DNA from: a virus
Virus record (IMG/VR): IMGVR_UViG_3300031746_000001
Reading direction: 5' to 3' (one strand)
Length of the DNA stretch: 64,000 nucleotides
Each line of letters begins with the position of its first letter. Within the stretch, counting starts at the first letter, position 1. Made by a program: the position numbers and the translations under genes. The notes beneath the pieces were generated by a model. It did not search any database. It had not been told where the DNA came from and saw only the letters and a program-made list of their open reading frames with translations. Of the stretch, positions 7,462 to 32,155 are shown in pieces.

Positions 7462-7917
7462 TCAAATTTCTCCTTCTACAGTGATCACTTCGGAACCCGA
7501 AGGGTCTATGGACGAGCACTTGAGTTCATAAATAGGTTCCTCCTTCACGCCCACCTGGACATACTGGCACTTCTCGCCCTTGAAAAATCCCAAGACCTTA
7601 ACATCCCCACAGTCCCAAGTCCGGCGTTTGATCTCAGCATAATCCTCCGGACGTTTGGTTTTCTGTCGATAGCCCTTCTGAGCCAAGAACCGAAGCAGTG
7701 GAGATATTTCCATCATGTGGTCAAGATCACAGTGAACAAGAATCCCGTTCACCTGCCCCCACATCCATCCCACACTGATCGACTGGATAAGGTCCGGAAA
7801 GACGAGCTTCGCCCCTAGCGCCACGTTCGCGGCGGGAACGAGCCCCTCGAGATAGGCAACCTTAGTCTTAACTATCTGTATTTCGGCCAGGATAAAATCC
7901 GGCGTCAAATTATGCAT
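7462..7917 (-). CDS. hypothetical protein
   Basis: Coupled ORF with lower GC. Confidence 0.6.
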   Translation of the reverse strand: MHNLTPDFILAEIQIVKTKVAYLEGLVPAANVALGAKLVFPDLIQSISVGWMWGQVNGILVHCDLDHMMEISPLLRFLAQKGYRQKTKRPEDYAEIKRRTWDCGDVKVLGFFKGEKCQYVQVGVKEEPIYELKCSSIDPSGSEVITVEGEI

Positions 7918-8215
7918 GGCTCATCCCAGCGGGGCACAGCCCCCCAAGAGACTTCGTCTTGGGAGGCTCCCCGGGTTTGAGATTGTGGTTCGGGCACGTG
8001 GGCTCCGGGCAGGGATAGTTCCCTTCCCACAGGATCGTCGTGCAGTAGGGGCAAAAATACAGGGCGACGGGAAGCCTCCCGAAAGTTATGTTGTCCCGGA
8101 AGTAATTCCGGGTCGCCTCCCCGCTCAGGGGATCGATCCCCTGCTTCTCAAAGAACTGCTTCCAGGTGATCACCTTCGGAAGTGCGGATACATCCTGGGT
8201 ATTAAAGTTAATCAC
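7910..8215 (-). CDS. Zn-binding hypothetical protein
   Basis: CPYC...CPEPTC; GAGGAGG SD. Confidence 0.55.
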   Translation of the reverse strand: MINFNTQDVSALPKVITWKQFFEKQGIDPLSGEATRNYFRDNITFGRLPVALYFCPYCTTILWEGNYPCPEPTCPNHNLKPGEPPKTKSLGGLCPAGMSHA

Positions 8216-8234
8216 TTCTCCCTCCTCTTATTTC

Positions 8235-8381
8235 TCATCCAAGCCTCCCTCTTCTTCGATCATTCTTCCCGAACACCACCACGCAGGACGGGAACGGAGC
8301 CCGCTTCCTCTTGTTGTCGTTGAAGCAGAGCCGGCCCTTGATAAACCTGATCTCCTGAGCCTTCATGACGTACCGATGCCA
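8235..8381 (-). pseudogene. displaced original 3-prime end of the Dam-type methyltransferase gene
   Basis: Translates WHRYVMKAQEIRFIKGRLCFNDNKRKRAPFPSCVVVFGK..., paralogous to the C-terminus of 8838..9248. Confidence 0.85.
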
Positions 8382-8815
8382 CGCTTTGCTTCCCTTAGCC
8401 TAAGATAAAACCGTCTCCTACGCAACACCAATTTTGGATCGGTTCTATTCCGACCACCTCGAGCCAAGGGAAGCTTCATAAAATTCAAAGCAATATCTGC
8501 CTCCTTCGCCTTCGTTCGTAAATATGGCCTTAAAATTAAAAGAACATTTTTTGCGTCTTGGCTCGAGCAAACCCATGACCATCCCGGATTCCATCTCTCA
8601 TTTCTCGGACTATACTTCCCAACATGACCCACTCCAAATTTCTTCCACGCATATTTAACCACTCGCTCATCACACATCGACAATTTAGTAATCAAGGAAT
8701 AAAGATCACTTACATGTCCTCCACGGCCATTAGATCTGTTAAAGCGAATATGTATACACCCCTCCCCGTCAAACAGACCAGCTAAATAAGCCTTTTCCAT
8801 CTCCGTCATTTTCAT
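8363..8815 (-). CDS. LAGLIDADG homing endonuclease (single motif)
   Basis: AYLAGLFDGEGCI; LRPYLRTK; AT-rich. Confidence 0.9.
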   Translation of the reverse strand: MKMTEMEKAYLAGLFDGEGCIHIRFNRSNGRGGHVSDLYSLITKLSMCDERVVKYAWKKFGVGHVGKYSPRNERWNPGWSWVCSSQDAKNVLLILRPYLRTKAKEADIALNFMKLPLARGGRNRTDPKLVLRRRRFYLRLREAKRGIGTS

Positions 8816-8837
8816 CTTTCCTTAGTTAGTGATGCCA

Positions 8838-9248
8838 CTATTGTAACACATCACTACGTCCAAATACAACTACCATTGATGGGAATGGAGCTCTTCCCTT
8901 TGCGTCATTAAATCTAAGCCTTCCCTTGATAAATATTATCTCCCTGGCGTGATGTAAAATATAACGGTGAAACCATATCGTATCCGTCCTCGAGGGCAGG
9001 AGCATCACCACGAGCTTCCCGGCCTGGCCCTCCTGGTACGCCCTTGCGATCCACTTCCCGATCTCCTTGCCGTAGGGAGGGTTGACGTAGGTCCGGGATC
9101 CCCACGGCCGCTCCAAGCCTCCCGTTCCGTGCAGAGGGCAGGGATCGTCGTTGAAGCTGAACCGAGCGTCGAGCTCGCTATAGATCAACGCCGGGGTCGC
9201 CCAATGCGTGGTCGTCGTGCGGGACGTGTGCATGGCCTTCATGATCAT
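8838..9248 (-). CDS. phage DNA N6-adenine methyltransferase (Dam-type)
   Basis: WATP, DPC, VNPPYG, LLPSRTDT.WFH, GRLRF, APFPS. Confidence 0.9.
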   Translation of the reverse strand: MIMKAMHTSRTTTTHWATPALIYSELDARFSFNDDPCPLHGTGGLERPWGSRTYVNPPYGKEIGKWIARAYQEGQAGKLVVMLLPSRTDTIWFHRYILHHAREIIFIKGRLRFNDAKGRAPFPSMVVVFGRSDVLQ

Positions 9249-18907: not shown

Positions 18908-19237
18908 TCAATTAACAAAATCTTCCCAGCGGAGCCCGCTGAGATTTGAACTCCCGCCCTCGCCCGGCAACTTCACCTTCAATGCCGTCGCCCATGAGTA
19001 GACCCAGCCCAGAACCATAGGATAGTCAGCCTGCTCATTCATGACCCTCACGCAGAGGGTATGAGCCGGGCACTTCGAGCATCGATCACCCTCCGGGAAA
19101 ACCCTCTGAACCTCTGCACAGAAACTGGCCGGAAGAGTCTCCTCCACTCCTCGAGGAATCCAAATTTGGAACCCCTCTCTGTCCAACGCCCTCCGCCAGT
19201 TTTCCTTCGTCCAGCCTTCAGGCCACACCTGACTCAT
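18908..19237 (-). CDS. hypothetical protein
   Basis: First gene after P5, GAGGAGG SD. Confidence 0.6.
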   Translation of the reverse strand: MSQVWPEGWTKENWRRALDREGFQIWIPRGVEETLPASFCAEVQRVFPEGDRCSKCPAHTLCVRVMNEQADYPMVLGWVYSWATALKVKLPGEGGSSNLSGLRWEDFVN

Positions 19238-19288
19238 GCTCTCCTCCTCACTTGGGGTTAAGGGATAATGCTCGCTCGCTACGATACC

Positions 19289-19317
19289 ATTATACCTATT
19301 CCCAGATTGCAAGTCAA
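19289..19317 (-). promoter_or_regulatory. sigma70 promoter P5 (TTGACT-17-TATAAT)
   Basis: Near consensus; downstream GGTATCGT shared with P4. Confidence 0.85.
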
Positions 19318-19464
19318 GCCCCTTTGAGAAAAATCTTTCTCGAAGGGGCCTGTTCGTTCACCATCTCATTTCAGGGACGGGCTGGGCACGGGACAGGGCA
19401 TCTGAGGTCGGTCTCGGCCTTAGATGCGAACGGTGGGCATCTGGTGGCTGTCTGGGAGGCCTTC

Positions 19465-20391
19465 CTACAGGGGAATGAGAGGGACTAAAGCGTCATAAAC
19501 TATATCTACAGTGAGCGACGCCATGCAGGGCCTGCTCGGGCATTGAAACGCATCGAGATAATACCCTTCGGGCCGACAGCAGTGCAAATTGTCACAGCTC
19601 CCCGGGATCCACAGGTTCGTATTCATGGCGTGGCCGGAGATGTGGGGGTTGCTTCTTCCGAAGAGAACGACCCCCGGTTTCCCGACGGCGGGCCCTCCGT
19701 GCCCGATGAAGGATTCGACCGTGACGTAGGACGAGCAGAAGCGAAGGATCGAAAGGGTCTGCCGGATCTTGAGGCCCCCGCAAAGGTTGGCGGTTACCCC
19801 GGGCACACAGGTCTCCCCGTTGCCCCCAATTTGGAGGACGGCGACACCCGCCTCCCGGAGCCGTTTTGTGAGGGCTACCCAGCGATCGTGGAACCAGTCC
19901 TTGTTGGGCGTCCCCTTCTTCCCGGTGAGAGGAATGTTAGCGGCCGCACTGTTGATCAGGACGACCTTCTCGCCAAAACCCTTCATAAAATTCATGCCCC
20001 AAGTGAGCTCGGACGGGCGGAGGAAAACCTCAAGTTCGTCATTGTCCCAGGGAAGCCCGCAGATCTCCGACCAAGCCTTAGATTGGAGCCCGTCGTAGAC
20101 ATGATTCCAGCGCCGGGTGTAGAGGTCGGCCCGGATGGTTTTTCGGGAATCTTTCTGTGGGATTACCCAGTCCTCATAGAACTCCCGAGCATCCTCCGCA
20201 GAGATGTGAAAGAGCTTGTCGATGTTCGGATTGCCCTGAAGGGCTTCCCAGTAGCATGCCGAGACGATGATGTGGTGATCCGGGTAGGCCTTCTTGGTCG
20301 CCCGGAGCATCGGGGTGACGCAGATGTGATCCCCGATGCCCCCGTCGATTACGAGGGTGAACCAGTTAGATGGCCGGGGGGTTTGTTCCAT
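19465..20391 (-). CDS. GT9 (heptosyltransferase-like) glycosyltransferase
   Basis: GGIGDHIC.TP, GNPNID, KDW..RW, ES..GH, VVLFG. Confidence 0.8.
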   Translation of the reverse strand: MEQTPRPSNWFTLVIDGGIGDHICVTPMLRATKKAYPDHHIIVSACYWEALQGNPNIDKLFHISAEDAREFYEDWVIPQKDSRKTIRADLYTRRWNHVYDGLQSKAWSEICGLPWDNDELEVFLRPSELTWGMNFMKGFGEKVVLINSAAANIPLTGKKGTPNKDWFHDRWVALTKRLREAGVAVLQIGGNGETCVPGVTANLCGGLKIRQTLSILRFCSSYVTVESFIGHGGPAVGKPGVVLFGRSNPHISGHAMNTNLWIPGSCDNLHCCRPEGYYLDAFQCPSRPCMASLTVDIVYDALVPLIPL

Positions 20392-20506
20392 CGAGCTCCC
20401 TTTTCTCGAACTCGGAAAGTATAGCACGACATTTCGGACACAACTCCAAACTCATATTTGAGGAGTCTGCGTCACAGAGATTACAGAGCCGGGGGGTTCG
20501 TTCCAT
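20366..20506 (-). CDS. 46-aa CxxC/CxxC mini-protein between 26-bp direct repeats
   Basis: MERTPRLCNLC...CPKC...ELDGTNPPAI. Confidence 0.4.
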   Translation of the reverse strand: MERTPRLCNLCDADSSNMSLELCPKCRAILSEFEKRELDGTNPPAI

Positions 20507-21374
20507 CGAGCTCTGCCATCCTGCGGTCGAATAACTGTTGGTCGGCAATCCAGTAGCTCTCGGGGTTAGGGACGCCTTTGGTCACCCGGATGCCGCCCTC
20601 GAGGGAAGCATAATGCCAGGCGATCGCCCGGGGCTGGACCAGGAGGGTATAGCCCTTCTTGAACATGTGGTAGGTGAGATCGGTCTCCCAGCGGTGGCCT
20701 GCGGGGGAATAATCGAGGCATATCCCTCCGGAGGCATCCACGGCGGATCCCGAGACGAGGAAGCAGGAGTTAATGTGCTCGGCCTCCTTGAGATTGACGT
20801 CCGGGGAGAGGATCTGGTGGAGAAGAGGGGTTAAGGGCCTTATCTTCCCCTGAAAGAGGTTCACGGACGCCCAGTTATTCGGGGCAGTCTGGCTCTCGAT
20901 GGTCATCCGGGGTAAGAGATAGACCCCTCCCACGCCCCCCAGCATCTTCCCTGGACCCAGGATTTGCTCGCACTGCACAAAAGGAACGACCATCCACTGA
21001 AGGTAATTCGGAAAGAGCACGAAGTCGTCGTCGATGTTGGCCACGAGCTCATGGCGTCGGTTAACGAACCCCGCATAGAAGGCGGCATGGGGCCCCCTCT
21101 TCGGCCCCCAGATCACCCGCCAGTTATGCCCCTGGTGGTTGAGCTGATCGAGAATATTGCATGTCGGGAAGGCCTCGCTGATCGGCCTTGCCCCTTCGGT
21201 GTCGTCCACGACGGTCAAATCCCAGTTCCCGTAGTTCTGAGCGAGCAGGGAGGACAAAAGCATGCACAGGTTGGTGTACCGCTCCTTCGTGGTGACCACG
21301 ACTTCGATCCGGTAGCGGGCTTCGTAGGTGTCGAACAGCGGGTTGAACTCGGTTATCAGATAATCAGGTAGCAT
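20481..21374 (-). CDS. GT2 family glycosyltransferase
   Basis: VVDD, NIDDD, ETDL motifs. Confidence 0.8.
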   Translation of the reverse strand: MLPDYLITEFNPLFDTYEARYRIEVVVTTKERYTNLCMLLSSLLAQNYGNWDLTVVDDTEGARPISEAFPTCNILDQLNHQGHNWRVIWGPKRGPHAAFYAGFVNRRHELVANIDDDFVLFPNYLQWMVVPFVQCEQILGPGKMLGGVGGVYLLPRMTIESQTAPNNWASVNLFQGKIRPLTPLLHQILSPDVNLKEAEHINSCFLVSGSAVDASGGICLDYSPAGHRWETDLTYHMFKKGYTLLVQPRAIAWHYASLEGGIRVTKGVPNPESYWIADQQLFDRRMAELDGTNPPAL

Positions 21375-22476
21375 AGTGATGCCCTAAAATGATCTTGGCT
21401 ACGATCCTTGAAACAGACCCGTTCTCGTATTCCGGTGGAACTCTCCACCAGTCCTCCCGTTCTCCCGTCGTTCCAGAAAAGACGGTCTCCACGGCTTCCA
21501 GAATAGCTTCCGGATCGTCCTTCGATAGAATGTTGCTCCCGCACTCGAGGGTCTCCGGGCGTTCTGTCGTATCCCGGACCGTGACGGCGGGAACCTTGAA
21601 AATGGTTGCCTCCTCCTGGACCGTCCCGCTGTCGGTCAAGATACAGCAGGCGTTCTGCTCGAGCCTCACGAAGTCGAAGAAGCCAAAGGGCTCACGGAAG
21701 GCAACCCACTTACTGATATCCAGCTCGTCGGCCTGATTCAGCTTCTCCTTCGTCCGGGGATGCAGGCTAACAACAACAGGCATCGAATAATGATCCCCCA
21801 CGAGGGACAGACCCTGGATGATGTTCTTCAGACGGTCCGGGACGTCTACGTTCTCCTGCCGATGGAAGGTTGCCAGAAAATACTGCCCGGACTGCAGGGG
21901 AGGCGGCCCGACAGAAAATAAAACATCAGATTGCCTTATCTGTTCTCCCCAGCGGCAGATGACCTCGTAGATCGGATTCCCCGTGACGTAAATACGGTTG
22001 GGCGGGATCCCCTCCCGCAAGAGGTTCTCCTTGCTCCGCTGGGTGTAGGGCATCAAGATGTCGCTGGCGTGGTCGATCACCTTCCGGTTAACCTCCTCCG
22101 GCACCCGATCATCGTAACACCTATTCCCCGCTTCCATGTGGTAGACCGGGATCCCCATTCTCTTGGCCACGATCGCCGCCAGCCCGCTGTCGGTATCCCC
22201 CAGAATAAGAACCCGGTCCGGCCTCTCCTTCCGAAAGAGATCTCCCACCTTCACAAAAATGTCGGCAACCCGATTTTCGAAGTTCTCCCCTGTGATCATG
22301 AGGCGCCGGAGAATGTTCTTGATTTCGAGCTCCTCAAAGAACACCTCGGAGAGGCAGGGATCGCTGTTCTGCCCGGTGTGGACGACGATCTGATCACATA
22401 GGGAATCGAGCCCCCGGATTACGTTGGAAAGCCTGATAATTTCCGGGCGGGTCCCGAACAGGGTTGCGATCTTCAT
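21364..22476 (-). CDS. fnlC: UDP-N-acetylhexosamine 2-epimerase (FnlC/WbjD-type, WecB family)
   Basis: GTRPEIIRLS, HTGQ, LGDT, HMEAGNRC, PEEVNR, TDSGTVQEE, TERPE. Confidence 0.85.
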   Translation of the reverse strand: MKIATLFGTRPEIIRLSNVIRGLDSLCDQIVVHTGQNSDPCLSEVFFEELEIKNILRRLMITGENFENRVADIFVKVGDLFRKERPDRVLILGDTDSGLAAIVAKRMGIPVYHMEAGNRCYDDRVPEEVNRKVIDHASDILMPYTQRSKENLLREGIPPNRIYVTGNPIYEVICRWGEQIRQSDVLFSVGPPPLQSGQYFLATFHRQENVDVPDRLKNIIQGLSLVGDHYSMPVVVSLHPRTKEKLNQADELDISKWVAFREPFGFFDFVRLEQNACCILTDSGTVQEEATIFKVPAVTVRDTTERPETLECGSNILSKDDPEAILEAVETVFSGTTGEREDWWRVPPEYENGSVSRIVAKIILGHHYAT

Positions 22477-23555
22477 CGCATAGCGTCCATCGAATCCGGC
22501 TTGTAGTCATCGACCATCAATCCCTTCGCCTGCAGGAACTCTTCGACCTCCGAGAATTTTAAGCATCCATGCTCGGAACTATATTCCCCCCTAACGCCAC
22601 GAGCAGGTTTCACGTCCCCAGGAAGTCCAGATCGAATCTCCGAAAGGATCGGAAGGATGACATAATAATTCCCCTTCTGATAGGTCCGGTAATCCTCCTC
22701 TTCGCTGATCAGAATTTCGTGGGTCTTCTCCCCCGGCCTGATTCCCGTAAACAGAAGTTCGATGGGTCTCTTACCCCTCAAAGCACAGGCGATATCGACA
22801 ACCTTTGCCGAGGGAACGACCGGCACGTAGGTTTCCCCCGCATCACCCTCCTTGAGAGCGGCAAAAATGGCGTCCACGGCCTCATCGAGGGAGAGCAGGA
22901 ACCTCGTCATATCCTTCGTGGTAACCGTGACGGGACCGCCTCGCTGGATTTGATCATAGAAAAGAGGTATCACAGATCCCCGGGAAGCCAGCACGTTCCC
23001 GTAACGGACGACGACGAACCGGGTCGGGCAGTGGATGTTCGCTTCGATAAAGATACGCTCCTGGATGGCTTTGGTCATCCCCATGACGTTCACAGGCTTC
23101 ACGGCCTTGTCGGTAGATATCCCCACGACCGTCTGCACCCGGGGATGCGCCTCGACCGCACGAACGATATTTGCCACCCCGAGAATGTTAGTCTTCACGG
23201 CCTCGAGGGGAAAGTACTCGCAGGTCGGGACTTGCTTCAGGGCGGCGGCATTGAACACCACATCCACGTCCTCCAACACCCGAAAGACGCTATCGTAGTC
23301 CCGCACGTCCCCGATCACGAACTTCAGCTTGTTCTGGAAGTCATCGTAAATCCTCTCGTCGGTCACCGCAACGGTCGATCGTTGCCACTCCATTCTCATG
23401 AAGTGTTGCTTGGCCTCATCCCGAGAGAACACGACTACCTCATTGGGAATACCCATCTCCCCGGCGAAAATCCTCCGGACCAGCACCTTACCCAAAGAGC
23501 CGGTCCCTCCGGTCACCAGGACCCGGGCGCCTTCCAACGGTTTCGCTCGCATCAT
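22473..23555 (-). CDS. fnlA: UDP-GlcNAc 4,6-dehydratase/epimerase (FnlA/WbjB/CapE-type)
   Basis: TGGTGSLG, SRDEAKQ, AALKQVPTCE, STDKAV, RYGNVLASRGSV, GIRPGEK. Confidence 0.85.
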   Translation of the reverse strand: MMRAKPLEGARVLVTGGTGSLGKVLVRRIFAGEMGIPNEVVVFSRDEAKQHFMRMEWQRSTVAVTDERIYDDFQNKLKFVIGDVRDYDSVFRVLEDVDVVFNAAALKQVPTCEYFPLEAVKTNILGVANIVRAVEAHPRVQTVVGISTDKAVKPVNVMGMTKAIQERIFIEANIHCPTRFVVVRYGNVLASRGSVIPLFYDQIQRGGPVTVTTKDMTRFLLSLDEAVDAIFAALKEGDAGETYVPVVPSAKVVDIACALRGKRPIELLFTGIRPGEKTHEILISEEEDYRTYQKGNYYVILPILSEIRSGLPGDVKPARGVRGEYSSEHGCLKFSEVEEFLQAKGLMVDDYKPDSMDAMR

Positions 23556-24055
23556 CGCTTTATAACCACTCCAATAAGGTGGATCGGAGGATGCTTGGTC
23601 GGCATCCGGTCGTAGATCAGCCCATCCTCAGTCTGGTAGAAGAACTGCGTCCCCTCCGGAATCAGCGCCCCCTCCGGGATATAGTTTGCCGAGAAGATAA
23701 ATATCCTCCTCGCCATCTCCACCAGAACGGGGAGATTGAACTTCTCGTCCTTGAAGGCTTCAAAAGAAACCACCGCATCGACCTTGAGCTCTTTGCTTAA
23801 AGCGGGTTTCCATAAAAAGATGGCCCGGCTCGACTCCGTAAAGTGCTCGTTGGCATAGTTAACGACATGGGGGTTCTCGTCGACCCCAAGAGTGTGGAGG
23901 CCCGCCTTAGCCAAGACGTCCGTCCCTAAACCGTCCCCGCATTCCGAGTCCAAGACGAATCCCGTGACCTCGTAGTCGGACAGAATCTCGGCGGCGAAGT
24001 AGTACCGGACCAGCTTCAGGTAAATCGCGGACAGGTGAATGTTATTCATCACCAA
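23552..24055 (-). CDS. degenerate class I SAM methyltransferase-like protein
   Basis: RYYF, VLDSECGDGLG. Confidence 0.6.
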   Translation of the reverse strand: MVMNNIHLSAIYLKLVRYYFAAEILSDYEVTGFVLDSECGDGLGTDVLAKAGLHTLGVDENPHVVNYANEHFTESSRAIFLWKPALSKELKVDAVVSFEAFKDEKFNLPVLVEMARRIFIFSANYIPEGALIPEGTQFFYQTEDGLIYDRMPTKHPPIHLIGVVIKR

Positions 24056-24956
24056 GCATCCTCATCCCCGGGCGGTTAGATTCCAGAATACGCTTATTTC
24101 TCTCGGCGCATTCCCACCACTCCGTTCGTTCCTCTATGGGCTTGTCCTTCCAGCAGGCCCGGCCCACAGACAAACTGAGATAGTGCAGGTCGTCCATCGG
24201 AGTCCGGAGATACTCCTCCTGGTCCGGGCCGGGCACGAGATCCTCCGGAAACCGCTCATCCGGGACCCGCTCCAACATCAGGCTGGACTCGTCGATGATC
24301 CGGGCATACATGCCGATCCGCTTCCCGTCGAGATGGGCGTAATGCAGGAAGCGTTCCCTCAATCTGTAAAGGTCGGCATAGGCGTAGTGCAGAAACGTGA
24401 TGTCGTCATGGGGCACGATCGTCCAGTACCGGAAAACCTGCGGAGGAGCGGGCGGGGCATGCATCTGCTTATCCTCGATCACGTCAAACTTCAGGCCCTC
24501 GTTCTTCCACAACCGATAGAACTGATCCTCGCAGGCCCACATGGAATCGACCCGACGCCAGCGGGGCTTCCGCCAGAGATTATAAGACGTAAAGACCAGG
24601 GAGCTGAAGTTCTGCTTGTCCATCGTGGGAAGCCAGTAATCCCGCAGACGTTGTCCGGCCCCCCGGCTAAGGATGTCGTCGCAGTCCATGAAAAGGATAT
24701 ACTCGGCGCCAACCTCGTTCACCCGGTCCAGAAGGAATACCGTGTTCTCCTTCTCCCTGTTCCTGCCGTACCTCTGCTCCCGCACCCAGACGTGGGGCGT
24801 GAACTTCCGGGCATACTCCGCTGTCCCGTCGTCCGAGTGATCATCAAGGACAAAGAGCTCGTCCGCTCCCCACTCCTGCCAGTGGGCGAAGAACCGTTGG
24901 GCATGCCCCGTGATCATCTCGTTATAAACACGCACGATAGCGGCCATCTTCATCAT
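24042..24956 (-). CDS. GT2-like glycosyltransferase
   Basis: VYNE, LDDHSDDGT, MDCDD, LHYAY. Confidence 0.8.
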   Translation of the reverse strand: MMKMAAIVRVYNEMITGHAQRFFAHWQEWGADELFVLDDHSDDGTAEYARKFTPHVWVREQRYGRNREKENTVFLLDRVNEVGAEYILFMDCDDILSRGAGQRLRDYWLPTMDKQNFSSLVFTSYNLWRKPRWRRVDSMWACEDQFYRLWKNEGLKFDVIEDKQMHAPPAPPQVFRYWTIVPHDDITFLHYAYADLYRLRERFLHYAHLDGKRIGMYARIIDESSLMLERVPDERFPEDLVPGPDQEEYLRTPMDDLHYLSLSVGRACWKDKPIEERTEWWECAERNKRILESNRPGMRMLGDE

Positions 24957-25117
24957 GGCTTAATTCTCCTCACCGCATTGCGTGATACGCATTCCCTCTG
25001 TCCATTCTCAAACTCAATCAGGATGCTATTCATTTTCCCCCTCGCTACGATTCGACACTTACGCCCATAGAGTTCCCTCCTCTTGGGATTATTTTTCCAT
25101 GCGTAGTAATGGGTCAC
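24953..25117 (-). CDS. small SH3-like phage protein (below ORF-track cutoff)
   Basis: MTHYYAWKNNPKRRELYGRKCRIVARGKMNSILIEFENGQRECVSRNAVRRIKP; overlaps both neighbours by 4 nt. Confidence 0.6.
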   Translation of the reverse strand: MTHYYAWKNNPKRRELYGRKCRIVARGKMNSILIEFENGQRECVSRNAVRRIKP

Positions 25118-26205
25118 GGCTTGACCCCCTCCACGTGGAAACTCTCGCAGTCGTATGGCGGCCCGATTTCATCCTTCAGGCCCCGGCGTTTCCGCTCGAG
25201 GCAGAAGTCCGGATTGGTCCCCTCCCCGATATCGAACACCTTAGCCTCGAACCCACACCTCCGAAGAGCATGGAGAATGAGCGGGACGTTCCAAACAAAC
25301 CTGTGTCCATGTTCCCGCACCAGCTCGTTCACTAGAAAGACGGAAAACGTGTAGCGGGATTGGAGCTGTTCGGGAATGGCATACTTATCAATCAACGTCT
25401 TGACATATTCCTCATCCCGATCGTCGATGCACTCGCCGTCCTCATCTGTAGCCATGAAATTGAACAGCTTATCGAGATCCGGGGTCACGATCCGGAGAAC
25501 GCCTCCCGGCTTCAAGACCCGGTAAGCCTCCCCGAAGAACTTGAGGGCACCCCCGAAGCCCACGTGCTCGAGGACATGCTCCATGAACAGGCACTCCACG
25601 CTACCATCCGCAAACTGCAGGGGCTTCGTGATATCCTGATCGGCCTCCTTCAGTATCTTCCATCCAGGCGCCTGGGCCCAGTGACCGCCAAGGATGACAC
25701 GGAGGGGCCCCTCCTTCTGTTCCTTCACCACGAGCCCGATAAGATGGGTAGCCGGAAGGAAGTGCGTATCACGATCATAGATAAAGCCCTCGGATGTCTG
25801 GTTGAAAAAGGTCGTATTCGGGGGCAAGACGCTCCGGTCAAACTCCTCCCCGATTTCAATAGAGAACATAAATACTTTAGCGGCACTCTCGACTAAATTC
25901 TTCGCATACTCACCCCAGTCGTGCGTTCTCTTGAAGGTATCAAGACAGACGATGGCGTCCGGAAACCCTAGAGCCGGGGGGTTCAGGATAGGCGAAACCT
26001 CAAACCCCATGTCCGAGAACACTTTCATCCCCTCTATGACGTCCGGCCCGGCGCCGGAGACAAAGACGGTCAGGATGCTGTAATCTCTTAGGGCGTACCC
26101 ACAGAAGTAATATCGGGCAAGCCTGCCAATTTTATCTGCTGGGTTTCCTGATATACGTTCTGCAGAAAATCGGCTTCCACCAACGGCCTCATTGTCCACG
26201 CACAC
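25114..26205 (-). CDS. methyltransferase (degenerate N-terminal domain + class I domain)
   Basis: EHVLEH, YRVLKPGGVLRI; N-terminus paralogous to 23552..24055; start uncertain. Confidence 0.7.
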   Translation of the reverse strand: MCVDNEAVGGSRFSAERISGNPADKIGRLARYYFCGYALRDYSILTVFVSGAGPDVIEGMKVFSDMGFEVSPILNPPALGFPDAIVCLDTFKRTHDWGEYAKNLVESAAKVFMFSIEIGEEFDRSVLPPNTTFFNQTSEGFIYDRDTHFLPATHLIGLVVKEQKEGPLRVILGGHWAQAPGWKILKEADQDITKPLQFADGSVECLFMEHVLEHVGFGGALKFFGEAYRVLKPGGVLRIVTPDLDKLFNFMATDEDGECIDDRDEEYVKTLIDKYAIPEQLQSRYTFSVFLVNELVREHGHRFVWNVPLILHALRRCGFEAKVFDIGEGTNPDFCLERKRRGLKDEIGPPYDCESFHVEGVKP

Positions 26206-27869
26206 CTCCCCATAACTTCGGCGATCCGATGAAGGTCATTCTCCATCCACCGGGGATAATCCTCATCCTCCGGCTTCGGGATTAGGGCCTCGGGAAAAAT
26301 CTCGTCCGGCAACCTCTGCAAAAGCAAGTTCGTCTCATCCAGCATCCTCGTGTAGAGAAAGAGGCGCCGGGAATCGAGTCGGGTATACTCCTCCCACTTG
26401 GTATCAAGGTTCTCCTTCGATGCGTAGCCGTAGTGAAGGACAGCAACCTCCTCCGTCCGGAAGGAATTCCGGTCAAGGCACCGAGGCCACAGCTGAAGAT
26501 GGGCTCCAACGGCGTTCCCCTGTTCGAAAAACATGATGCCGTCATTCCTCCACAGCCTCGCCCATCCCATGCTACACGACCAACCCATGTCCCGTCGACG
26601 CCAGCGGGGCGTCTTCCAGAGATTGTATTCGGGAAAGTAGATCGACGACCAGTCCTGCTTGTCGCCCTCCTCCATTAGCCGCCCCATGATCTCCCCGGCA
26701 TTCCGAGTTAAAACCTCGTCGATGTCCATCCAAAGCATCCACTGGGCTCCGACCTCTTTGCACCGGTCAACCAGGAACATCATATTTTCTATCTCGTAGT
26801 GCTTCCCCCGGTTCCGATCCCTCACCCAGACATACGAAGTATGCTTCCGGACGGCCGCTACCGTCCCGTCCGTGGAGCAGTCGTCGAGAACAAAGAGAGC
26901 ATCGAGGCCCCAGGTCTTGGCCTGATCGAAGAACTTGTCGAAGTAGTCCCGCCCGACCTCGTTATACGTCCGAACGAATCCCACGAGGCGTTTTGGGGTT
27001 TTCAAGATATTAAGGCGGTAGCGGCGATCCTCAAAGTGCTGGCGTTGCGGATCGGCAGGAACACTGGGAACGCAAGACCACTCGTCCACGATCACGTCGG
27101 GATCTCCCCAGACCCGACCGACGTTGGCAACGGTCTTGAACTCGCTTAGGAAGCGGGTCTGGTTCTTGAGGCAGTAGAAGTCTGATCCAAGATCGACCCG
27201 GGGATGATACTGGTGAAGTCCTATCATGTCGTCGGCGTGGAAGAGCTCTACCCCGGAAGCCATCATCCGACGACCACATTCGGTGTCCTCCCAGGCCAGA
27301 CCCTGCATGTAGTCCTCGTCAATCCCTCCGATCTTCTCCATGAGGGATTTCGGGATGACCCCGATGAAGTAGAGTCCGGCCATATCCGGGCGCTCGGTGG
27401 AGCAGGTGAGGTTGATCAGCCCCGACGAGCTGAAGGTGTGGAGCTCATCCATCAGAAGCTGGGTCCAGGGAGGGACGTCTACGACCCGAGCCCGCACGAC
27501 CCGACCCTCCTTGCCTAATTCATCGGCCTGCCATAAAGTCTCGGTAACGTGGATGACCTCCGGGCTTGTCAGCATGAGAAGGTCGCCCCGGGCCCTGCGG
27601 ATCCCGACGTTCCAAGCTAGCGCAGGATTGCACGTCCCAGTGGGACCGTGGTAGACGGGGATCTTGGCCTTCGAGTCGTCGATCCGAAGGTAGGTGAGGT
27701 TCAGAACGCCGGAGAGGGATTGCAGATATTCCTTGAGGCCGTCCGAGGACCCGTAGTCCACAAAGATGACCTCGTAATTCTCTCGGGGATAATCCTGAGT
27801 GTAGATCGAGGGGAACGCCCGCTTGAGGAGATCTAAACGGTTGAGAATCGGAATCACGATCGAGATCAC
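26088..27869 (-). CDS. two-domain GT2 glycosyltransferase
   Basis: ISIVIP, VDYGSSDG, GGIDEDY, WEDTE; second domain LDDCSTDGT, MDIDE, LHYGY. Confidence 0.85.
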   Translation of the reverse strand: MISIVIPILNRLDLLKRAFPSIYTQDYPRENYEVIFVDYGSSDGLKEYLQSLSGVLNLTYLRIDDSKAKIPVYHGPTGTCNPALAWNVGIRRARGDLLMLTSPEVIHVTETLWQADELGKEGRVVRARVVDVPPWTQLLMDELHTFSSSGLINLTCSTERPDMAGLYFIGVIPKSLMEKIGGIDEDYMQGLAWEDTECGRRMMASGVELFHADDMIGLHQYHPRVDLGSDFYCLKNQTRFLSEFKTVANVGRVWGDPDVIVDEWSCVPSVPADPQRQHFEDRRYRLNILKTPKRLVGFVRTYNEVGRDYFDKFFDQAKTWGLDALFVLDDCSTDGTVAAVRKHTSYVWVRDRNRGKHYEIENMMFLVDRCKEVGAQWMLWMDIDEVLTRNAGEIMGRLMEEGDKQDWSSIYFPEYNLWKTPRWRRRDMGWSCSMGWARLWRNDGIMFFEQGNAVGAHLQLWPRCLDRNSFRTEEVAVLHYGYASKENLDTKWEEYTRLDSRRLFLYTRMLDETNLLLQRLPDEIFPEALIPKPEDEDYPRWMENDLHRIAEVMGRCAWTMRPLVEADFLQNVYQETQQIKLAGLPDITSVGTP

Positions 27870-28177
27870 TTCGGAACCTCCGTCCCTTTCAATGTATTCT
27901 CATCGAGCTGTCGCCCACGATCATCGAAGTAGATATCGGCATGGAGCTTCCCGCAGACGAGGACGGCATCCTTCAGGCCGTTCTTCTCCATCCACGCACG
28001 GATATCCACATACTCCCACCAACCCCGGGCCGTGAAAATAAAGACTAGGTTACCTTCCTGCATCCATCGGATTGCTAAATCTATGTTCGGGTGAATGACC
28101 TCTCCGATCTCTCCCCCCTCTTTGTCGGGGTTCACCTTTGCGAGCGTTCCGTCGAGGTCAAAGGCTATCTTCTTCAC
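27866..28177 (-). CDS. HAD-family phosphatase (capsule-biosynthesis type)
   Basis: FDLDGTL, FTAR, K...YFDDR. Confidence 0.8.
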   Translation of the reverse strand: MKKIAFDLDGTLAKVNPDKEGGEIGEVIHPNIDLAIRWMQEGNLVFIFTARGWWEYVDIRAWMEKNGLKDAVLVCGKLHADIYFDDRGRQLDENTLKGTEVPK

Positions 28178-29631
28178 TTGGCTTCACCTCCCTTCAAGAT
28201 CGACATCAGGGCGTCGTAGACTTGCTCGACGGAAACCCCGTCGAGGCAGGCCCTGTGGTTGCAAATCTTGTCCTCCATATAGCAGGGCTGACACTTGACT
28301 CCCTGGAAGATATTTACATTCTGGTCGTAGCCGGAGCTTTTCGGGCACGTGCTTCCGAAAATCACAACCGCCCGGGTCTTCATGGCCTGCGACAAGTGAT
28401 TGGTCACGGAGTCCCCGCAGATCAACGCCTGGGCCCGCTCAATGAGGACAGCCAGACCCTTGAGATTCGTCATCCCAGCGGCACAGGTGAAATTGTTGCT
28501 CTCCTTCAGGACCGGCTCCTCCTTCTGATCCCCGACCTGGATGATCTTGTAGCCCTCCGATATCAGCCGCTGGCAAAGACGTCCCCACAGCCGTGGCGGC
28601 CAGGCTTTATTGATCGTGAAGCCGGGGTAAGGGTGAACGACGATATAGGGCATGCCGACCTTGCCGACGATCTCTCCCATCGTCTTCCAAACGTTCGGGT
28701 CGACGGGGTAGGAGATATCCCGGCTCGGCGGGACCCCGGCCTGTTCGCAGAACCACTCTGTCAGATGCTTCGTGTCCTGGACCTTCCGATCGGGATACCG
28801 GAAGTAGATATCCGTGTCCGGCCACTGGGCGAAGCCCTTCTCCCCCGGATGCGTCCCGGGCGGGTTGGCGTAGCGGACAACATCGATGTCCGGGTGGTCT
28901 GCAATCAAGGGGAGCCACTTGGGGTCGGTGAGGTAAATGAGGACGTCGTGCTTCTTCTTGAGCAGGGATACAGCGGGGAGGGTCATGAGCATGTCCCCCA
29001 ACATCCCAAGCCTCTGAACCTGGACGGTATCGACCTTCGTCCGCAAGTCCTTGAGCCGACCCAGGAGCACGGGATCCTCCGGCAGGTAGTTCAAATTACT
29101 CACGGTCGTGATCAACCGCTCCCTATCGGATTGAAAGTCGACCTTCCGGGCCACGAGGTCAAAGGCGTACTCGTCATTCTCGTTGTGGGATTCAACGTGC
29201 ATAAACATCATGCCATCTAGAAGAGCTAACGGTCGAAGAACATCTTCCGGCAGAAAGTCGTAGCGGTGGTTTGGATTGGATCCCGGCATACCGATATTGG
29301 GATAGAAGTTCTTGTGCGGCAGATAAAGAACGAGATACCCTCCCGGCCTCACGAGCCGACACCACTCCCGAAGGGTCGCCACCTTGTCGACCTGGTCCTC
29401 CAGAGCATGAGAGGAGAATACATAGTCAAATGCGCCATCGGCAAAAATAGGAAGGGAAGTGATGTCTCCGGCGACATTCACTTCCTTCCCCGCACGATCC
29501 ACGCCGATAGCTCCCGGAACTACCTTCTCGTCCCCACACCCTAAATCAACTCCTGTCCCCTTACAGAATTGTTCCAGGCGAGCACGACACTTACGAGACT
29601 CAAACCCCTTGGATGTTTCTTCTGACCACAT
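28174..29631 (-). CDS. methyltransferase-GT9 glycosyltransferase fusion
   Basis: DLGCG, FSSHALE; LGDMLM.LP, KAWP, DS...H, VIFG. Confidence 0.85.
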   Translation of the reverse strand: MWSEETSKGFESRKCRARLEQFCKGTGVDLGCGDEKVVPGAIGVDRAGKEVNVAGDITSLPIFADGAFDYVFSSHALEDQVDKVATLREWCRLVRPGGYLVLYLPHKNFYPNIGMPGSNPNHRYDFLPEDVLRPLALLDGMMFMHVESHNENDEYAFDLVARKVDFQSDRERLITTVSNLNYLPEDPVLLGRLKDLRTKVDTVQVQRLGMLGDMLMTLPAVSLLKKKHDVLIYLTDPKWLPLIADHPDIDVVRYANPPGTHPGEKGFAQWPDTDIYFRYPDRKVQDTKHLTEWFCEQAGVPPSRDISYPVDPNVWKTMGEIVGKVGMPYIVVHPYPGFTINKAWPPRLWGRLCQRLISEGYKIIQVGDQKEEPVLKESNNFTCAAGMTNLKGLAVLIERAQALICGDSVTNHLSQAMKTRAVVIFGSTCPKSSGYDQNVNIFQGVKCQPCYMEDKICNHRACLDGVSVEQVYDALMSILKGGEAK

Positions 29632-29666
29632 GAATTAAAGGTTCTCCTTCTGCATATTGGCTAAAC

Positions 29667-29695
29667 ATTATAAGGGATTTCAATTTGATTGTCAA
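29667..29695 (-). promoter_or_regulatory. sigma70 promoter P6 (TTGACA-17-TATAAT) of the glycosylation operon
   Basis: Perfect consensus. Confidence 0.85.
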
Positions 29696-29719
29696 GACCC
29701 TCCTGGGAAAAAGTTTAAT

Positions 29720-29887
29720 AGTCGCATTTTGCGACTCAGACAAATACTAAAGAACAGATTAACTACAAACAGCTTTTAAGAGAAGAGAAGAACAACAAGT
29801 AATATATACAGAAAAGCGTGTAGTCGCATAATGCGACTGGATTAGCAGGGGAAACAGCTACTTCCCAAAAAGTCGCATTTTGCGACT
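29720..29887. repeat. three 17-bp palindromes AGTCGCA-N3-TGCGACT around an A-rich tract (origin iterons or operators)
   Basis: Copies at 29720-29736, 29822-29838 and 29871-29887. Confidence 0.8.
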
Positions 29888-29911
29888 ACCTGCTGGCGCC
29901 AGCGGACGGAC

Positions 29912-32155
29912 TCACATTCCGGTGGCTACCATTCTCCTCTCTGGGACGGTTAGACCGTAAAGGTCGGAAACCAAGTCCTCCACCTCCTGGTAGGCGGTCT
30001 TGATCCGCCAGCGGGCCGACGCCTTCTCATGAGGCCCCTGGATGGAGGGGAGGGTCCGGTTGAGGGTTAGGAGCTCGTCCACGAGGGAAACGATCTGATC
30101 GTGGGCCCTCTTCTCTGCCGGACCGTCTATGGCCGGGATGGGAAGCTCAAGGATGTGGTAGAAATGGAGCTCGCAGAGAATCCTCCTGCGGGTCTGGATG
30201 TAGAACCTCCTCACGTAGTAATTGAGGAGCTGGGTATTCATGACTCCGATCAAGTAGCGGTCGGATATCTTGCCGTTGTTGATGCATCCGTAGACGGCAT
30301 CCACGAACACACAGCGGTCGTAGTCCAGGGAGGTGGTGAGCTGATTCGTGAAGCCCCGGATGACTATCTTCTCTGGCATCTCTCCGAAGAGGCTAACGAG
30401 ATGGGCGATCTCCTTGCTCTTGGCGGGATCCACCCAGTGATCTTGCAGGTTGACCTTGTAGCGGTCGACATCCGTCCCTAGGAGGGCTCTTATGCCGCCC
30501 TGCTCTGGACCTGCGACGTTGTGGGCCTCGTCCCAGCGGAAGCCGTCCTTGATCTTAAGGAACTCGGCGATCGTCGGCCTGCCGGACGCCGTCATCTTGC
30601 CGAACATCTCTATGTCCGCATCGGAGCAGAAGACGTTGAGCAGGGCCCGGGGAAACCCCTTGAACCGCTCCTGGTGGACGGGATTCGTCCGCTCGAACGT
30701 CGCGGTCTTATTTACGATCCGGACGTTGACCACGTTCCCGTTGGAGGGAACCTTCCGCATAGCAAAGACCGTGCATTTGATGGCGATCCCCTCAAAGGCC
30801 GGTCCGACGTCGTTGACCTCGAGGATCGTCCAGTCGAGAAGGGCCCTCCGGGCCGCCTCACCATCCTGTGTGAACAGCAGGGAGAGGGGAACGATGAACG
30901 AGAAGTAGCCTTCCGGCTTTAGAAGGGAGACGGATTTTAGGATGAAGAGGAGGTAAAGGTTGGACTGCCCCTTGATCGAATACTTCTCCTCGAAGTAAAC
31001 TTTCTGCAGGTCATCGTGCATGGCTCCCGTCCGGACATAGGGAGGGTTGCCGATGATGATATCGAACCCCCCCTCGGACATGGGTTCAGAAAAACCCTTT
31101 ATCCAGTCGAACGGGTTGATCTTCTGACGCTCGACTTCGGGAAGATTGTAGAACTCTGGCTTGAGAGAGACATCCGTCCCCACGAGGGTATTCCCGCACC
31201 GGATGTTTTGGGTCATGTCGAGCGTTCCTTGACCATCGGTAATAGTGACCTCCTGCCCTTCGTAGAGCTTCAGGAGGAGAGAAAGCCTCGCCAGGCGCAC
31301 GGCGTTGGGATCCAGGTCGATGCCGAAGATCTGCCTCTGAAGCACCTCCATCCGTTCGTGAAGACTGAGGGGAGAATTCTTTTGGGCTTTCTTCTGGGCC
31401 TCGAAGTAGGACAAGAGATACTCGTAGGCCGCGACGAGGAAGTTACCCGACCCGCAGGCCGGGTCGATGATCCGGAGACGCTGGGCCCAATACCAAGTGA
31501 CCTCTTTTAGCTTTCTGCAGAGGGTCTGTTCGATGATGTGGTCTACGATGTGCTTCGGGGTGTAATAAACACCTCCGACCTTCCGCTCCTCCGTGTTGAA
31601 GGAGTACTCGACGTCATGTAAAGTCTTGCCCCTCTCGGACTCGCCCTCGCCGACGGACGTCCACTTCACGATCCGGACGGCACACCCGAAGTAGGCCTCA
31701 TGCATCGTCCCGAGGATGTCTAAAGATATCTGGTCGAACTGGTGTGACTCGTAAGCATCGGCCAGGATCGACCGCAGGACGTCCGGGGAGATAAAGACCC
31801 AGGACTCCCACTCCTGGGGCTCAAATAAGTCTCCCCCGAAAATGCTGTGGTAGTGCTGGAACTCCTGCCGGAGGACGTCGAGGGCGTTGCCTGTGGTGCC
31901 TTCGGGGAAGAGGGTATTCAGGTGGGGTCGGGCAAGGGCCTTGCGGTCCTCACAGAACCGGATGAACACGATCCGGTCGAGAATCCTGCGGGTGATCTCC
32001 TTCAGCCGGAGGGCGTCCCCCTCGGGATCCTCCGAGTCGAACTTCTCTCTTTGGTTCCGGAATACGTCCTTTGCTAAAACTCCCCACCACTTGCGGAGGT
32101 GGATTAGCAGATCCCGTTCACGCCTTTGGGAGCGGTCTGTTTTGATCAGTGACAT
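29912..32155 (-). CDS. Type IIG/Eco57I-like N6-adenine DNA methyltransferase with TRD and no evident nuclease domain
   Basis: GVYYTP, DPACGSGNF, GIDLD, GFDIIIGNPPY. Confidence 0.85.
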   Translation of the reverse strand: MSLIKTDRSQRRERDLLIHLRKWWGVLAKDVFRNQREKFDSEDPEGDALRLKEITRRILDRIVFIRFCEDRKALARPHLNTLFPEGTTGNALDVLRQEFQHYHSIFGGDLFEPQEWESWVFISPDVLRSILADAYESHQFDQISLDILGTMHEAYFGCAVRIVKWTSVGEGESERGKTLHDVEYSFNTEERKVGGVYYTPKHIVDHIIEQTLCRKLKEVTWYWAQRLRIIDPACGSGNFLVAAYEYLLSYFEAQKKAQKNSPLSLHERMEVLQRQIFGIDLDPNAVRLARLSLLLKLYEGQEVTITDGQGTLDMTQNIRCGNTLVGTDVSLKPEFYNLPEVERQKINPFDWIKGFSEPMSEGGFDIIIGNPPYVRTGAMHDDLQKVYFEEKYSIKGQSNLYLLFILKSVSLLKPEGYFSFIVPLSLLFTQDGEAARRALLDWTILEVNDVGPAFEGIAIKCTVFAMRKVPSNGNVVNVRIVNKTATFERTNPVHQERFKGFPRALLNVFCSDADIEMFGKMTASGRPTIAEFLKIKDGFRWDEAHNVAGPEQGGIRALLGTDVDRYKVNLQDHWVDPAKSKEIAHLVSLFGEMPEKIVIRGFTNQLTTSLDYDRCVFVDAVYGCINNGKISDRYLIGVMNTQLLNYYVRRFYIQTRRRILCELHFYHILELPIPAIDGPAEKRAHDQIVSLVDELLTLNRTLPSIQGPHEKASARWRIKTAYQEVEDLVSDLYGLTVPERRMVATGM

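What the first reader, a model, noticed from the sequence alone, without database searches (positions are those of the whole stretch)
8235..9248. LAGLIDADG cassette inserted into the Dam methyltransferase gene carries a replacement 3-prime end
Seen: the MTase 8838..9248 ends in an AT-rich segment encoding WFHRYILHHAREIIFIKGRLRFNDAKGRAPFPSMVVVFG. Past the LAGLIDADG ORF, a GC-rich segment (8235..8381) encodes WHRYVMKAQEIRFIKGRLCFNDNKRKRAPFPSCVVVFG, the displaced original C-terminus. The endonuclease ORF has no stop of its own and terminates inside the displaced piece. An 8-bp hairpin (8827-8856) with TGtTACAAT across its loop sits just before the endonuclease SD. Established: HEG elements that duplicate the 3-prime end of their host gene are known from fungal mitochondria. 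Inference: a non-splicing homing element that repairs its target with a recoded, cleavage-resistant gene end, a third route besides introns and inteins.
Basis: partly seen in the sequence, partly recalled or inferred. Interest (0 to 1): 0.82.

Follow-up and report, generated by a model that had tools for sequence, protein, structure and literature searches.

The report
Homing nuclease bringing spare methylase end
A selfish DNA-cutting gene has inserted into a phage DNA-methylase gene and keeps it whole by carrying a spare, diverged copy of the gene's end, a trick described in fungal mitochondria; its relatives hit the same spot in unrelated viruses and rescue the gene in several different ways, apparently without splicing.

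Summary
Confirmed and extended. A 591-nt AT-rich insert (8972..8382, minus strand) sits between two Trp codons of a PF05869 adenine methylase gene. It carries an in-frame replacement 3' end, a promoter-like site and an I-CreI-like single-motif LAGLIDADG gene. A related 160-kb virus (L001) has the empty allele; its 3' end is 139/147 nt identical to the displaced piece. The nuclease's nearest relatives sit at the same site in unrelated viruses: same layout (L116), nuclease antisense (L036, L117/L204, L211), in-frame insertion without intein (L038 plus 8 proteins), or C-terminal fusion (L120). In L117 versus L204 a 99%-identical cassette precedes displaced ends only 75% identical, switching at the junction: a homing footprint. 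All six displaced ends read W-W-H; all six replacements read W-F. No intron or intein features were found. It works like the fungal-mitochondrial mORF gene hybrids, so it is not a new route. My limited literature search found no phage report, but this scan has already noted the layout in other phage and prokaryote genes. Cleavage and absence of splicing are untested.

The parts
8973..9248 (-). Resident 5' part of the PF05869 adenine methylase gene (codons 1-92, includes NPPY); left homology arm
   Evidence: About 90% nt identical to the empty allele L001 up to the junction (111/123 and 132/146); GC3 0.87
8382..8972 (-). Mobile cassette, 591 nt, inserted between two Trp codons (TGG^TGG), 2 nt of junction ambiguity
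   Evidence: Absent from L001; AT-rich; same junction in L036, L116, L117, L204, L211
8838..8972 (-). Replacement methylase 3' end (44 codons plus stop), in frame; supplies the rest of helix 91-97 and the last two strands
   Evidence: 61% nt identity to the displaced end, 27/37 aa kept of which 19 use different codons; profile score hybrid 212 bits vs native join 228 vs 5' part alone 148; model
8827..8856 (-). 8-bp inverted repeat enclosing an extended -10-like element (TG-n-TACAAT, 8848-8840); candidate nuclease promoter/operator, overlapping the methylase stop
   Evidence: Sequence. An extended -10 lies 6-30 nt before the nuclease start in 7 of 9 stand-alone methylase-linked nucleases with readable upstream DNA (ad hoc shuffle p 0.04 or less each; not L208, L209); a repeat over it also in L117, L211, L206. 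Function inferred.
8819..8823 (-). Shine-Dalgarno (AAGGA) of the nuclease gene
   Evidence: Sequence; inference
8363..8815 (-). Single-motif LAGLIDADG endonuclease, 150 aa (or 148 from the second ATG), I-CreI/I-MsoI-like, acidic catalytic position and conserved Lys intact
   Evidence: Pfam; family profile hits I-CreI, I-MsoI, I-CvuI; model pLDDT 90, Foldseek TM about 0.75 to I-CreI; G13, D16, G17, E18, G19 invariant and K102 nearly invariant among homologs
8235..8381 (-). Displaced native methylase 3' end, still open; right homology arm. An ATG overlapping the nuclease stop could give a 43-aa peptide (8366..8235)
   Evidence: 139/147 nt identical to L001; 7 codons differ, 6 of them synonymously
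8212..8238 (-). 8-codon ORF overlapping the displaced stop and the start of the next gene (possible translational relay)
   Evidence: in L001 a longer gene starts at this ATG. Inference.

Best explanation
A homing endonuclease cassette that targets a conserved site in small phage PF05869 methylase genes and needs no splicing. SHOWN (sequence): the cassette is a discrete foreign insertion at the T-D-T-x-W^W-H-x-Y codons; it restores a full-length methylase with its own in-frame 3' end; the recipient's old end is left downstream; the same nuclease clade occupies the same site in unrelated viruses; one cassette occurs in front of different recipient ends. INFERRED: in a co-infection the homodimeric nuclease, made from the cassette's own extended -10 promoter, cuts the empty allele at or near the Trp-Trp-His codons. 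The break is repaired on the occupied genome, with the methylase 5' part as left arm and the displaced old end as right arm, so the cassette is copied in as in intron homing. The occupied allele is immune because the site is split. The new left junction does not rebuild the site because the replacement changes the second Trp to Phe (Trp cannot be recoded silently) and is most diverged over the next codons. When the displaced end decays, the nuclease looks like an ordinary free-standing gene next to its target (L206, L208).
For: Empty allele L001 with the junction to within 2 nt. Composition step at both junctions. Top nuclease homologs in viral and metagenome contigs are in methylase genes at this site: L116 (49%), L117 (46%), L036 (42%), L038 (40%), L120; of 8 top profile hits whose contigs were looked up, 7 have a methylase gene or fragment beside them, and 9 more hits contain methylase sequence fused to the nuclease. 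Methylase-linked nucleases cluster on the tree (2 label changes vs 7.1 shuffled, 0/500; window+P0023+L116 96/87). L117 vs L204: cassette 617/624, displaced end 79/105, flanks unrelated; L204 vs L205: upstream 300/300, cassette 621/624, displaced end 78/105. Displaced ends all W-W-H, replacements all W-F; replacements average 51% identity to each other vs 67% among displaced ends. Antisense nucleases with the same replacement layout argue against an RNA-level rescue. A sister strain (P0170, 159.5-kb contig; run X4) has a different methylase 5' end and the identical replacement. Precedent with biochemical support in Allomyces atp6, as cited in PMC3630166.
Against: No cleavage assay; the recognition site and cut position are unknown, and no clear pseudo-palindrome was found around the junction. 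For this particular cassette, recent movement is shown only weakly (the sister strain is a patchy mosaic); the clear homing footprint comes from the related L117/L204 cassette. W-F is also a common natural allele in this family (many of L002-L022), and the W-W frequency of 106/120 is biased by the query. The six cassettes are not fully independent (L117 and L204 share one). Five rows were dropped from the tree by an extraction error and most deep branches are weak.
Confidence: 0.86

Rival explanations
1. Passive recombination: an ordinary methylase gene with an adjacent free-standing nuclease from another phage recombined into this gene once, homologously on the left and illegitimately on the right, and the nuclease does not target this site.
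For: Methylase-nuclease neighbours without a displaced piece exist (L206, L208). The replacement shares subfamily features with the displaced end (73% aa). Phage genomes are mosaics.
Against: The right-hand junction falls at the same Trp-Trp-His codons in five unrelated cassettes in two orientations, and identity switches exactly there between L117 and L204. Chance illegitimate events would not share a junction.
Confidence: 0.07
2. A self-splicing or enzyme-spliced intron whose removal rejoins the 5' part to the displaced end, the replacement end being a back-up.
For: Joining 8973 to 8381 restores a perfect gene (228 bits), the displaced end is intact, and LAGLIDADG genes are typically intron-borne (established knowledge).
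Against: No Rfam match at E up to 10 inside the insert. Nearly all 591 nt are coding, leaving about 22 nt. The 5' exon ends in G, not U, and no bulge-helix-bulge forms between the junctions. Relatives lose the displaced end, carry the nuclease antisense, or fuse it in frame.
Confidence: 0.04
3. The nuclease and methylase are a functional pair (a restriction-modification-like or competition module); the cassette installs a methylase variant whose activity protects against the nuclease.
For: Tight and repeated linkage, including in-frame insertions and a C-terminal fusion; replacements differ in residues right after the junction.
Against: A sister clade of the same nuclease sits at an unrelated gene (L023, L024, L037, L118, L119, L122, L123, L130), with a 5'-end duplication in L123, so linkage follows the target, not a need for methylation. 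Long-site LAGLIDADG enzymes are not known to be gated by a cognate methylase (established knowledge).
Confidence: 0.03

Closest known systems
Mobile endonuclease ORFs (mORFs) forming gene hybrids in fungal mitochondria: Allomyces macrogynus atp6; Glomus atp6, atp9, cox2, nad3; Rhizopus atp9; Mortierella cox2 (PMC3630166)
   Same: Insertion inside a gene; foreign in-frame C-terminus plus LAGLIDADG/GIY-YIG ORF; native C-terminus displaced downstream and closer to the relative's gene (91% vs 63.5% in Glomus atp6; 94.6% vs 61% here).
   Different: Tailed bacteriophage, not mitochondrion; target is a DNA methylase; single-motif enzyme with its own sigma70-like promoter; one clade shows sense, antisense, in-frame and fused layouts at one site.
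Free-standing homing endonucleases of T4-like phages (Seg, Mob; intronless homing; PMC2988022) and HEG-islands (PMC10055350)
   Same: Not in an intron or intein; spreads by break repair and brings a resistant allele of the target; gene fragments near nucleases were noted in HEG-islands.
   Different: T4 genes are intergenic and cut hundreds to thousands of bp from their insertion site; here the insertion is within the target, at the inferred cut site, with a retained displaced end. mobE in Aeh1 nrdA and mobA in T4 gene 60 split the gene instead of replacing its end.
ShiLan domain in actinobacteriophage methylases (PMC11855218)
   Same: Non-intron, non-intein homing nuclease inside a phage DNA methylase gene.
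   Different: HNH read out of frame inside an in-frame insertion; no replacement end. It resembles the in-frame branch of this clade (L038, P0021, P0022 and others), not the window's layout.
I-CreI / I-MsoI / I-CvuI homodimeric LAGLIDADG endonucleases
   Same: One motif, same fold (TM about 0.75), about 150 aa.
   Different: Those are encoded in group I introns of algal rRNA genes (own knowledge); only about 20% identity; target unknown here.
Integrating elements that restore the 3' end of their target gene (e14 and phage 21 in icd; prophages in tRNA genes) (own knowledge, not checked here)
   Same: Element supplies a replacement 3' end and displaces the old one.
   Different: Those use an integrase and can excise; this cassette has only a nuclease.

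Membership tests
Single-motif LAGLIDADG endonuclease (I-CreI-like) | One LAGLIDADG helix with acidic catalytic residue and the alpha-beta-beta-alpha-beta-beta-alpha fold | tested here: met
Single-motif LAGLIDADG endonuclease (I-CreI-like) | Homodimer that cuts a long pseudo-palindromic site | not testable with these tools
   Palindrome scan of the empty site gave nothing clear; needs an assay
mORF-type gene-hybrid element | Discrete insertion inside a coding gene, with an empty allele in a close relative | tested here: met
   L001
mORF-type gene-hybrid element | Foreign in-frame replacement C-terminus that restores the gene | tested here: met
   61% nt identity, GC3 0.33 vs 0.76-0.87, profile score 212 bits
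mORF-type gene-hybrid element | Displaced native end closer to the relative's gene than the replacement is | tested here: met
   139/147 nt to L001
mORF-type gene-hybrid element | Endonuclease cuts the empty allele and drives mobility | not testable with these tools
   Indirect support: L117/L204/L205 footprint, shared junction
mORF-type gene-hybrid element | Hybrid transcript expressed without splicing | not testable with these tools
   No RNA run could be laid; see Tried and rejected
mORF-type gene-hybrid element | Located in fungal mitochondrial DNA | tested here: not met
   Window is a tailed-phage genome segment (baseplate and tail-fibre-like genes by inspection; relatives in IMG/VR; 160-kb contig). 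It works like an mORF but is not filed as one.
Group I intron | Ribozyme core; 5' exon ends in U, intron ends in G | tested here: not met
   No Rfam hit; about 22 non-coding nt; exon ends in G
Archaeal BHB intron | Bulge-helix-bulge formed by the two junctions | tested here: not met
   Co-fold of junctions shows none
Intein | In-frame insertion with splicing termini | tested here: not met
   Methylase frame stops at 8838; nuclease is a separate ORF; no Hint domain
T4-type free-standing homing endonuclease | Intergenic insertion, cut site far from insertion site | tested here: not met
   Insertion is within the target gene; definition from PMC2988022. Cut site itself untested.
PF05869 phage adenine methylase | Pfam score above cut-off, NPPY motif, methyltransferase fold | tested here: met
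PF05869 phage adenine methylase | GATC (Dam) specificity and activity of the hybrid | not testable with these tools
   Best structural match is weak and not E. coli Dam

The most novel reading that the evidence does not exclude
An undescribed, widespread clade of phage LAGLIDADG homing endonucleases is specialised on the silently unrecodable Trp-Trp-His codons of PF05869 methylases and has repeatedly evolved splicing-free ways to spare the host gene (3'-end replacement in sense or antisense, in-frame domain insertion, C-terminal fusion; a sister clade duplicates a 5' end). End replacement would then be a general mode of homing in phages, continually swapping methylase C-termini between viruses and giving rise to 'free-standing' nucleases as the displaced end decays.
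Probability: 0.6. Interest if true: 0.72.

Novelty: new variant of a known kind. Interest (0 to 1): 0.6.

Why it matters
It moves a mechanism known from fungal mitochondria into bacteriophages with unusually complete comparative evidence: empty allele, exact junction, several independent occupied alleles and a homing footprint. It gives a direct test, because the target can be read from the data and both alleles are natural sequences. It suggests how nucleases come to sit beside their targets without introns, and it explains small orphan gene-end fragments that annotators miss. It also implies that phage methylases are often chimeras, which affects phylogenies and possibly methylation specificity. 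The clade is a source of small meganucleases with a predictable site.

Tried and rejected
No whole genome is held for the window. Direct search with the nuclease in viral contigs found nothing. A DNA pattern joining a methylase end to a LAGLIDADG start gave 8 hits, all false. The displaced piece against annotated phages gave 88 records, none with two copies, so no cultured phage with this cassette was found at that sensitivity. Genome contigs gave 7 distant nucleases, none methylase-linked. Sequencing runs: no RNA holder listed, which says nothing on expression or splicing. No contig joined across the cassette in four runs; in run X5 a low-depth contig ends exactly at 8381, a weak hint only. 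Run X4 matches the window across the cassette in the listed differences, but the list is cut and the strain is a patchy mosaic, so I do not count it as proof of co-conversion. Palindrome scan for the recognition site: inconclusive. Hairpin as a T4-style SD-sequestering structure: rejected, it stops short of the SD and folds no better than shuffles. One search's first comparison and one search's L204 comparison had offset errors; they were redone. Literature: nine searches found no report of end replacement by a phage homing nuclease; the library lacks most subscription papers, so this is not proof of novelty. P0023, the closest nuclease (48%), lies just upstream of a 176-aa PF05869 gene, but no DNA was served, so its layout is unresolved.

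Full report
Observation. On the minus strand a 136-codon PF05869 adenine methylase gene (9248..8838) is followed after 22 nt by a 150-codon LAGLIDADG ORF (8815..8363), then by a second copy of the methylase C-terminus (8381..8235). The two copies share 27 of 37 aligned residues, 19 of them with different codons, and 61% of nucleotides. GC at third positions is 0.87 in the methylase 5' part, 0.33 in its present 3' end, 0.40 in the nuclease and 0.76 in the downstream copy. The nuclease stop lies inside the downstream copy. The 8-bp repeat and the extended -10-like motif are at the stated place. The window is part of a tailed phage of about 160 kb from sediment.

The empty allele. A related 160-kb viral contig, L001, has the same gene uninterrupted, with flanks 75-90% identical. 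Its 3' end is 139/147 nt identical to the downstream copy, with six of seven changed codons synonymous. The downstream copy is therefore the native end and the present end is foreign. In the model the junction is mid-helix and the replacement supplies the last two strands. The hybrid scores 212 bits against a profile of 117 homologs, the native join 228, the 5' part alone 148. A sister strain with a different methylase 5' end has the identical replacement (P0170; run X4), so this is not an assembly error.

The nuclease. It has one LAGLIDADG motif with the acidic position intact and a conserved Lys. The family profile and the predicted structure match I-CreI, I-MsoI and I-CvuI. A homodimeric enzyme is inferred; activity is untested.

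The same site in other viruses. The best homologs in viral and metagenome contigs sit in PF05869 genes at this position. L116 (49%) has the window's layout. L036, L117, L204/L205 and L211 have replacement and displaced ends with the nuclease on the opposite strand; L210 has a decayed displaced end. L038 and eight top profile hits carry the nuclease as an in-frame insertion about seven codons downstream, with no intein termini visible. L120 is a C-terminal fusion. L206 and L208 have the nuclease directly after the methylase with no displaced piece. Methylase-linked nucleases cluster on a tree (2 changes vs 7.1 shuffled); the window groups with P0023 and L116 at 96/87; five rows were dropped and deep support is weak. 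A sister group lies at a different, unnamed gene family, with a duplicated 5' end in L123.

Footprint of movement. L117 and L204 share 617/624 nt of cassette but only 79/105 nt of displaced end, and differences begin at the junction; beyond that they are unrelated. L204 and L205 are identical upstream, share 621/624 nt of cassette and differ in the displaced end (78/105). The simplest reading is one cassette copied into different recipient alleles, each keeping its own old end. This makes the displaced end the right homology arm of repair (inference).

Immunity. All six displaced ends begin W-W-H and all six replacements begin W-F. Replacements are more diverged from one another (51%) than displaced ends are (67%), most visibly in the first codons after the junction. 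Trp has one codon, so escape needs an amino-acid change. W-W is found in 106 of 120 close homologs of L001, but that set is biased by the query and W-F alleles are common elsewhere. The pattern is suggestive, not proven.

Expression. An extended -10 motif lies 6-30 nt before the nuclease start in the window, L116, L117, L036, L211, L206 and L210 (ad hoc score, shuffle p 0.04 or less each), with near-consensus -35 boxes in L116, L117 and L211; it is not seen in L208 or L209. A repeat covers it in the window, L117, L211 and L206. The hairpin is not significant as RNA and leaves the SD free, unlike most T4 cases (PMC2988022); an operator role is speculation.

Not an intron or intein. No Rfam match, almost no non-coding space, non-canonical ends and no bulge-helix-bulge. 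Antisense and end-less relatives are hard to reconcile with splicing. No RNA data could be examined.

Comparison with what is known. The layout is that of mORF gene hybrids in fungal mitochondria, where mobility by the nuclease was shown for Allomyces atp6 as cited in PMC3630166. It works like those but is not one of them by location. T4 free-standing nucleases are intergenic and cut far away; mobE and mobA split their hosts (PMC2988022). HEG-islands contain gene fragments proposed as recombination substrates (PMC10055350), which is close but not this layout. The ShiLan element is a non-splicing in-frame HNH insertion in a phage methylase (PMC11855218). I found no paper on end replacement in phages, within a limited library. 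Earlier notes of this scan report the same layout at sod, nrdB, nadV, a tail fibre and an integrase in other genomes, and at several genes of this genome; these are unchecked leads, not support.

Verdict. Real, well supported, and a phage variant of a known kind rather than a new category. What adds value is a defined nuclease clade with an inferred target, four splicing-free layouts at one site, and a natural homing footprint. Best explanation 0.86; interest 0.6.

Noticed in passing
L038:191-1039; P0021, P0022, P0025, P0026, P0031, P0032, P0050, P0120: PF05869 methylases with the LAGLIDADG domain inserted in frame in a loop about seven codons after the Trp site, without visible intein termini; possibly bifunctional proteins. 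None keeps W-W-H.
   Followed up: partly
L023, L024, L037, L118, L119, L122, L123, L125, L130: A sister nuclease group lies at or in a gene of about 290 aa with an L-T-L-R-Q motif (no Pfam hit on record). L123 has a duplicated 5' end; L024 is interrupted after that motif without an obvious replacement.
   Followed up: partly
L120 / P0033: Complete methylase fused through a linker to a C-terminal LAGLIDADG domain; reads W-W-N instead of W-W-H.
   Followed up: partly
L036:1922-2073 and L117/L204: In antisense cassettes the replacement methylase end and the nuclease 3' end overlap convergently by 150-180 nt; L036 has an 8-nt duplication at its junctions.
   Followed up: partly
P0171: Close relative of the window methylase whose end resembles the replacement but is frameshifted near the C-terminus; context not retrieved.
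   Followed up: no
P0035: Nuclease of this clade fused to what looks like the first 20 residues of a PF05869 methylase, as if the intervening gene was deleted.
   Followed up: no
L187: A more distant LAGLIDADG gene is flanked by three similar methyltransferase N-terminal segments on the opposite strand, perhaps a 5'-end duplication in another methylase family.
   Followed up: no
window 7462-7917 and 8235-8215 vs L001 2420-3083: Gene content differs around the locus: the window has a 151-aa gene that L001 and run X4 lack, and lacks the gene that follows the methylase in L001, leaving an 8-codon remnant.
   Followed up: partly
window 33112-39315: 2067-aa protein with long collagen-like repeats, beside a glycosyltransferase and sugar-modification gene cluster (about 19000-30000); by inspection only.
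   Followed up: no
window 62245-63999: ORF whose start looks like an ATP-grasp region followed by an intein start; by inspection only.
   Followed up: no
L208:1971-3471: The nuclease stop abuts a UDG / DNA polymerase A gene that itself carries an intein with a LAGLIDADG domain.
   Followed up: no
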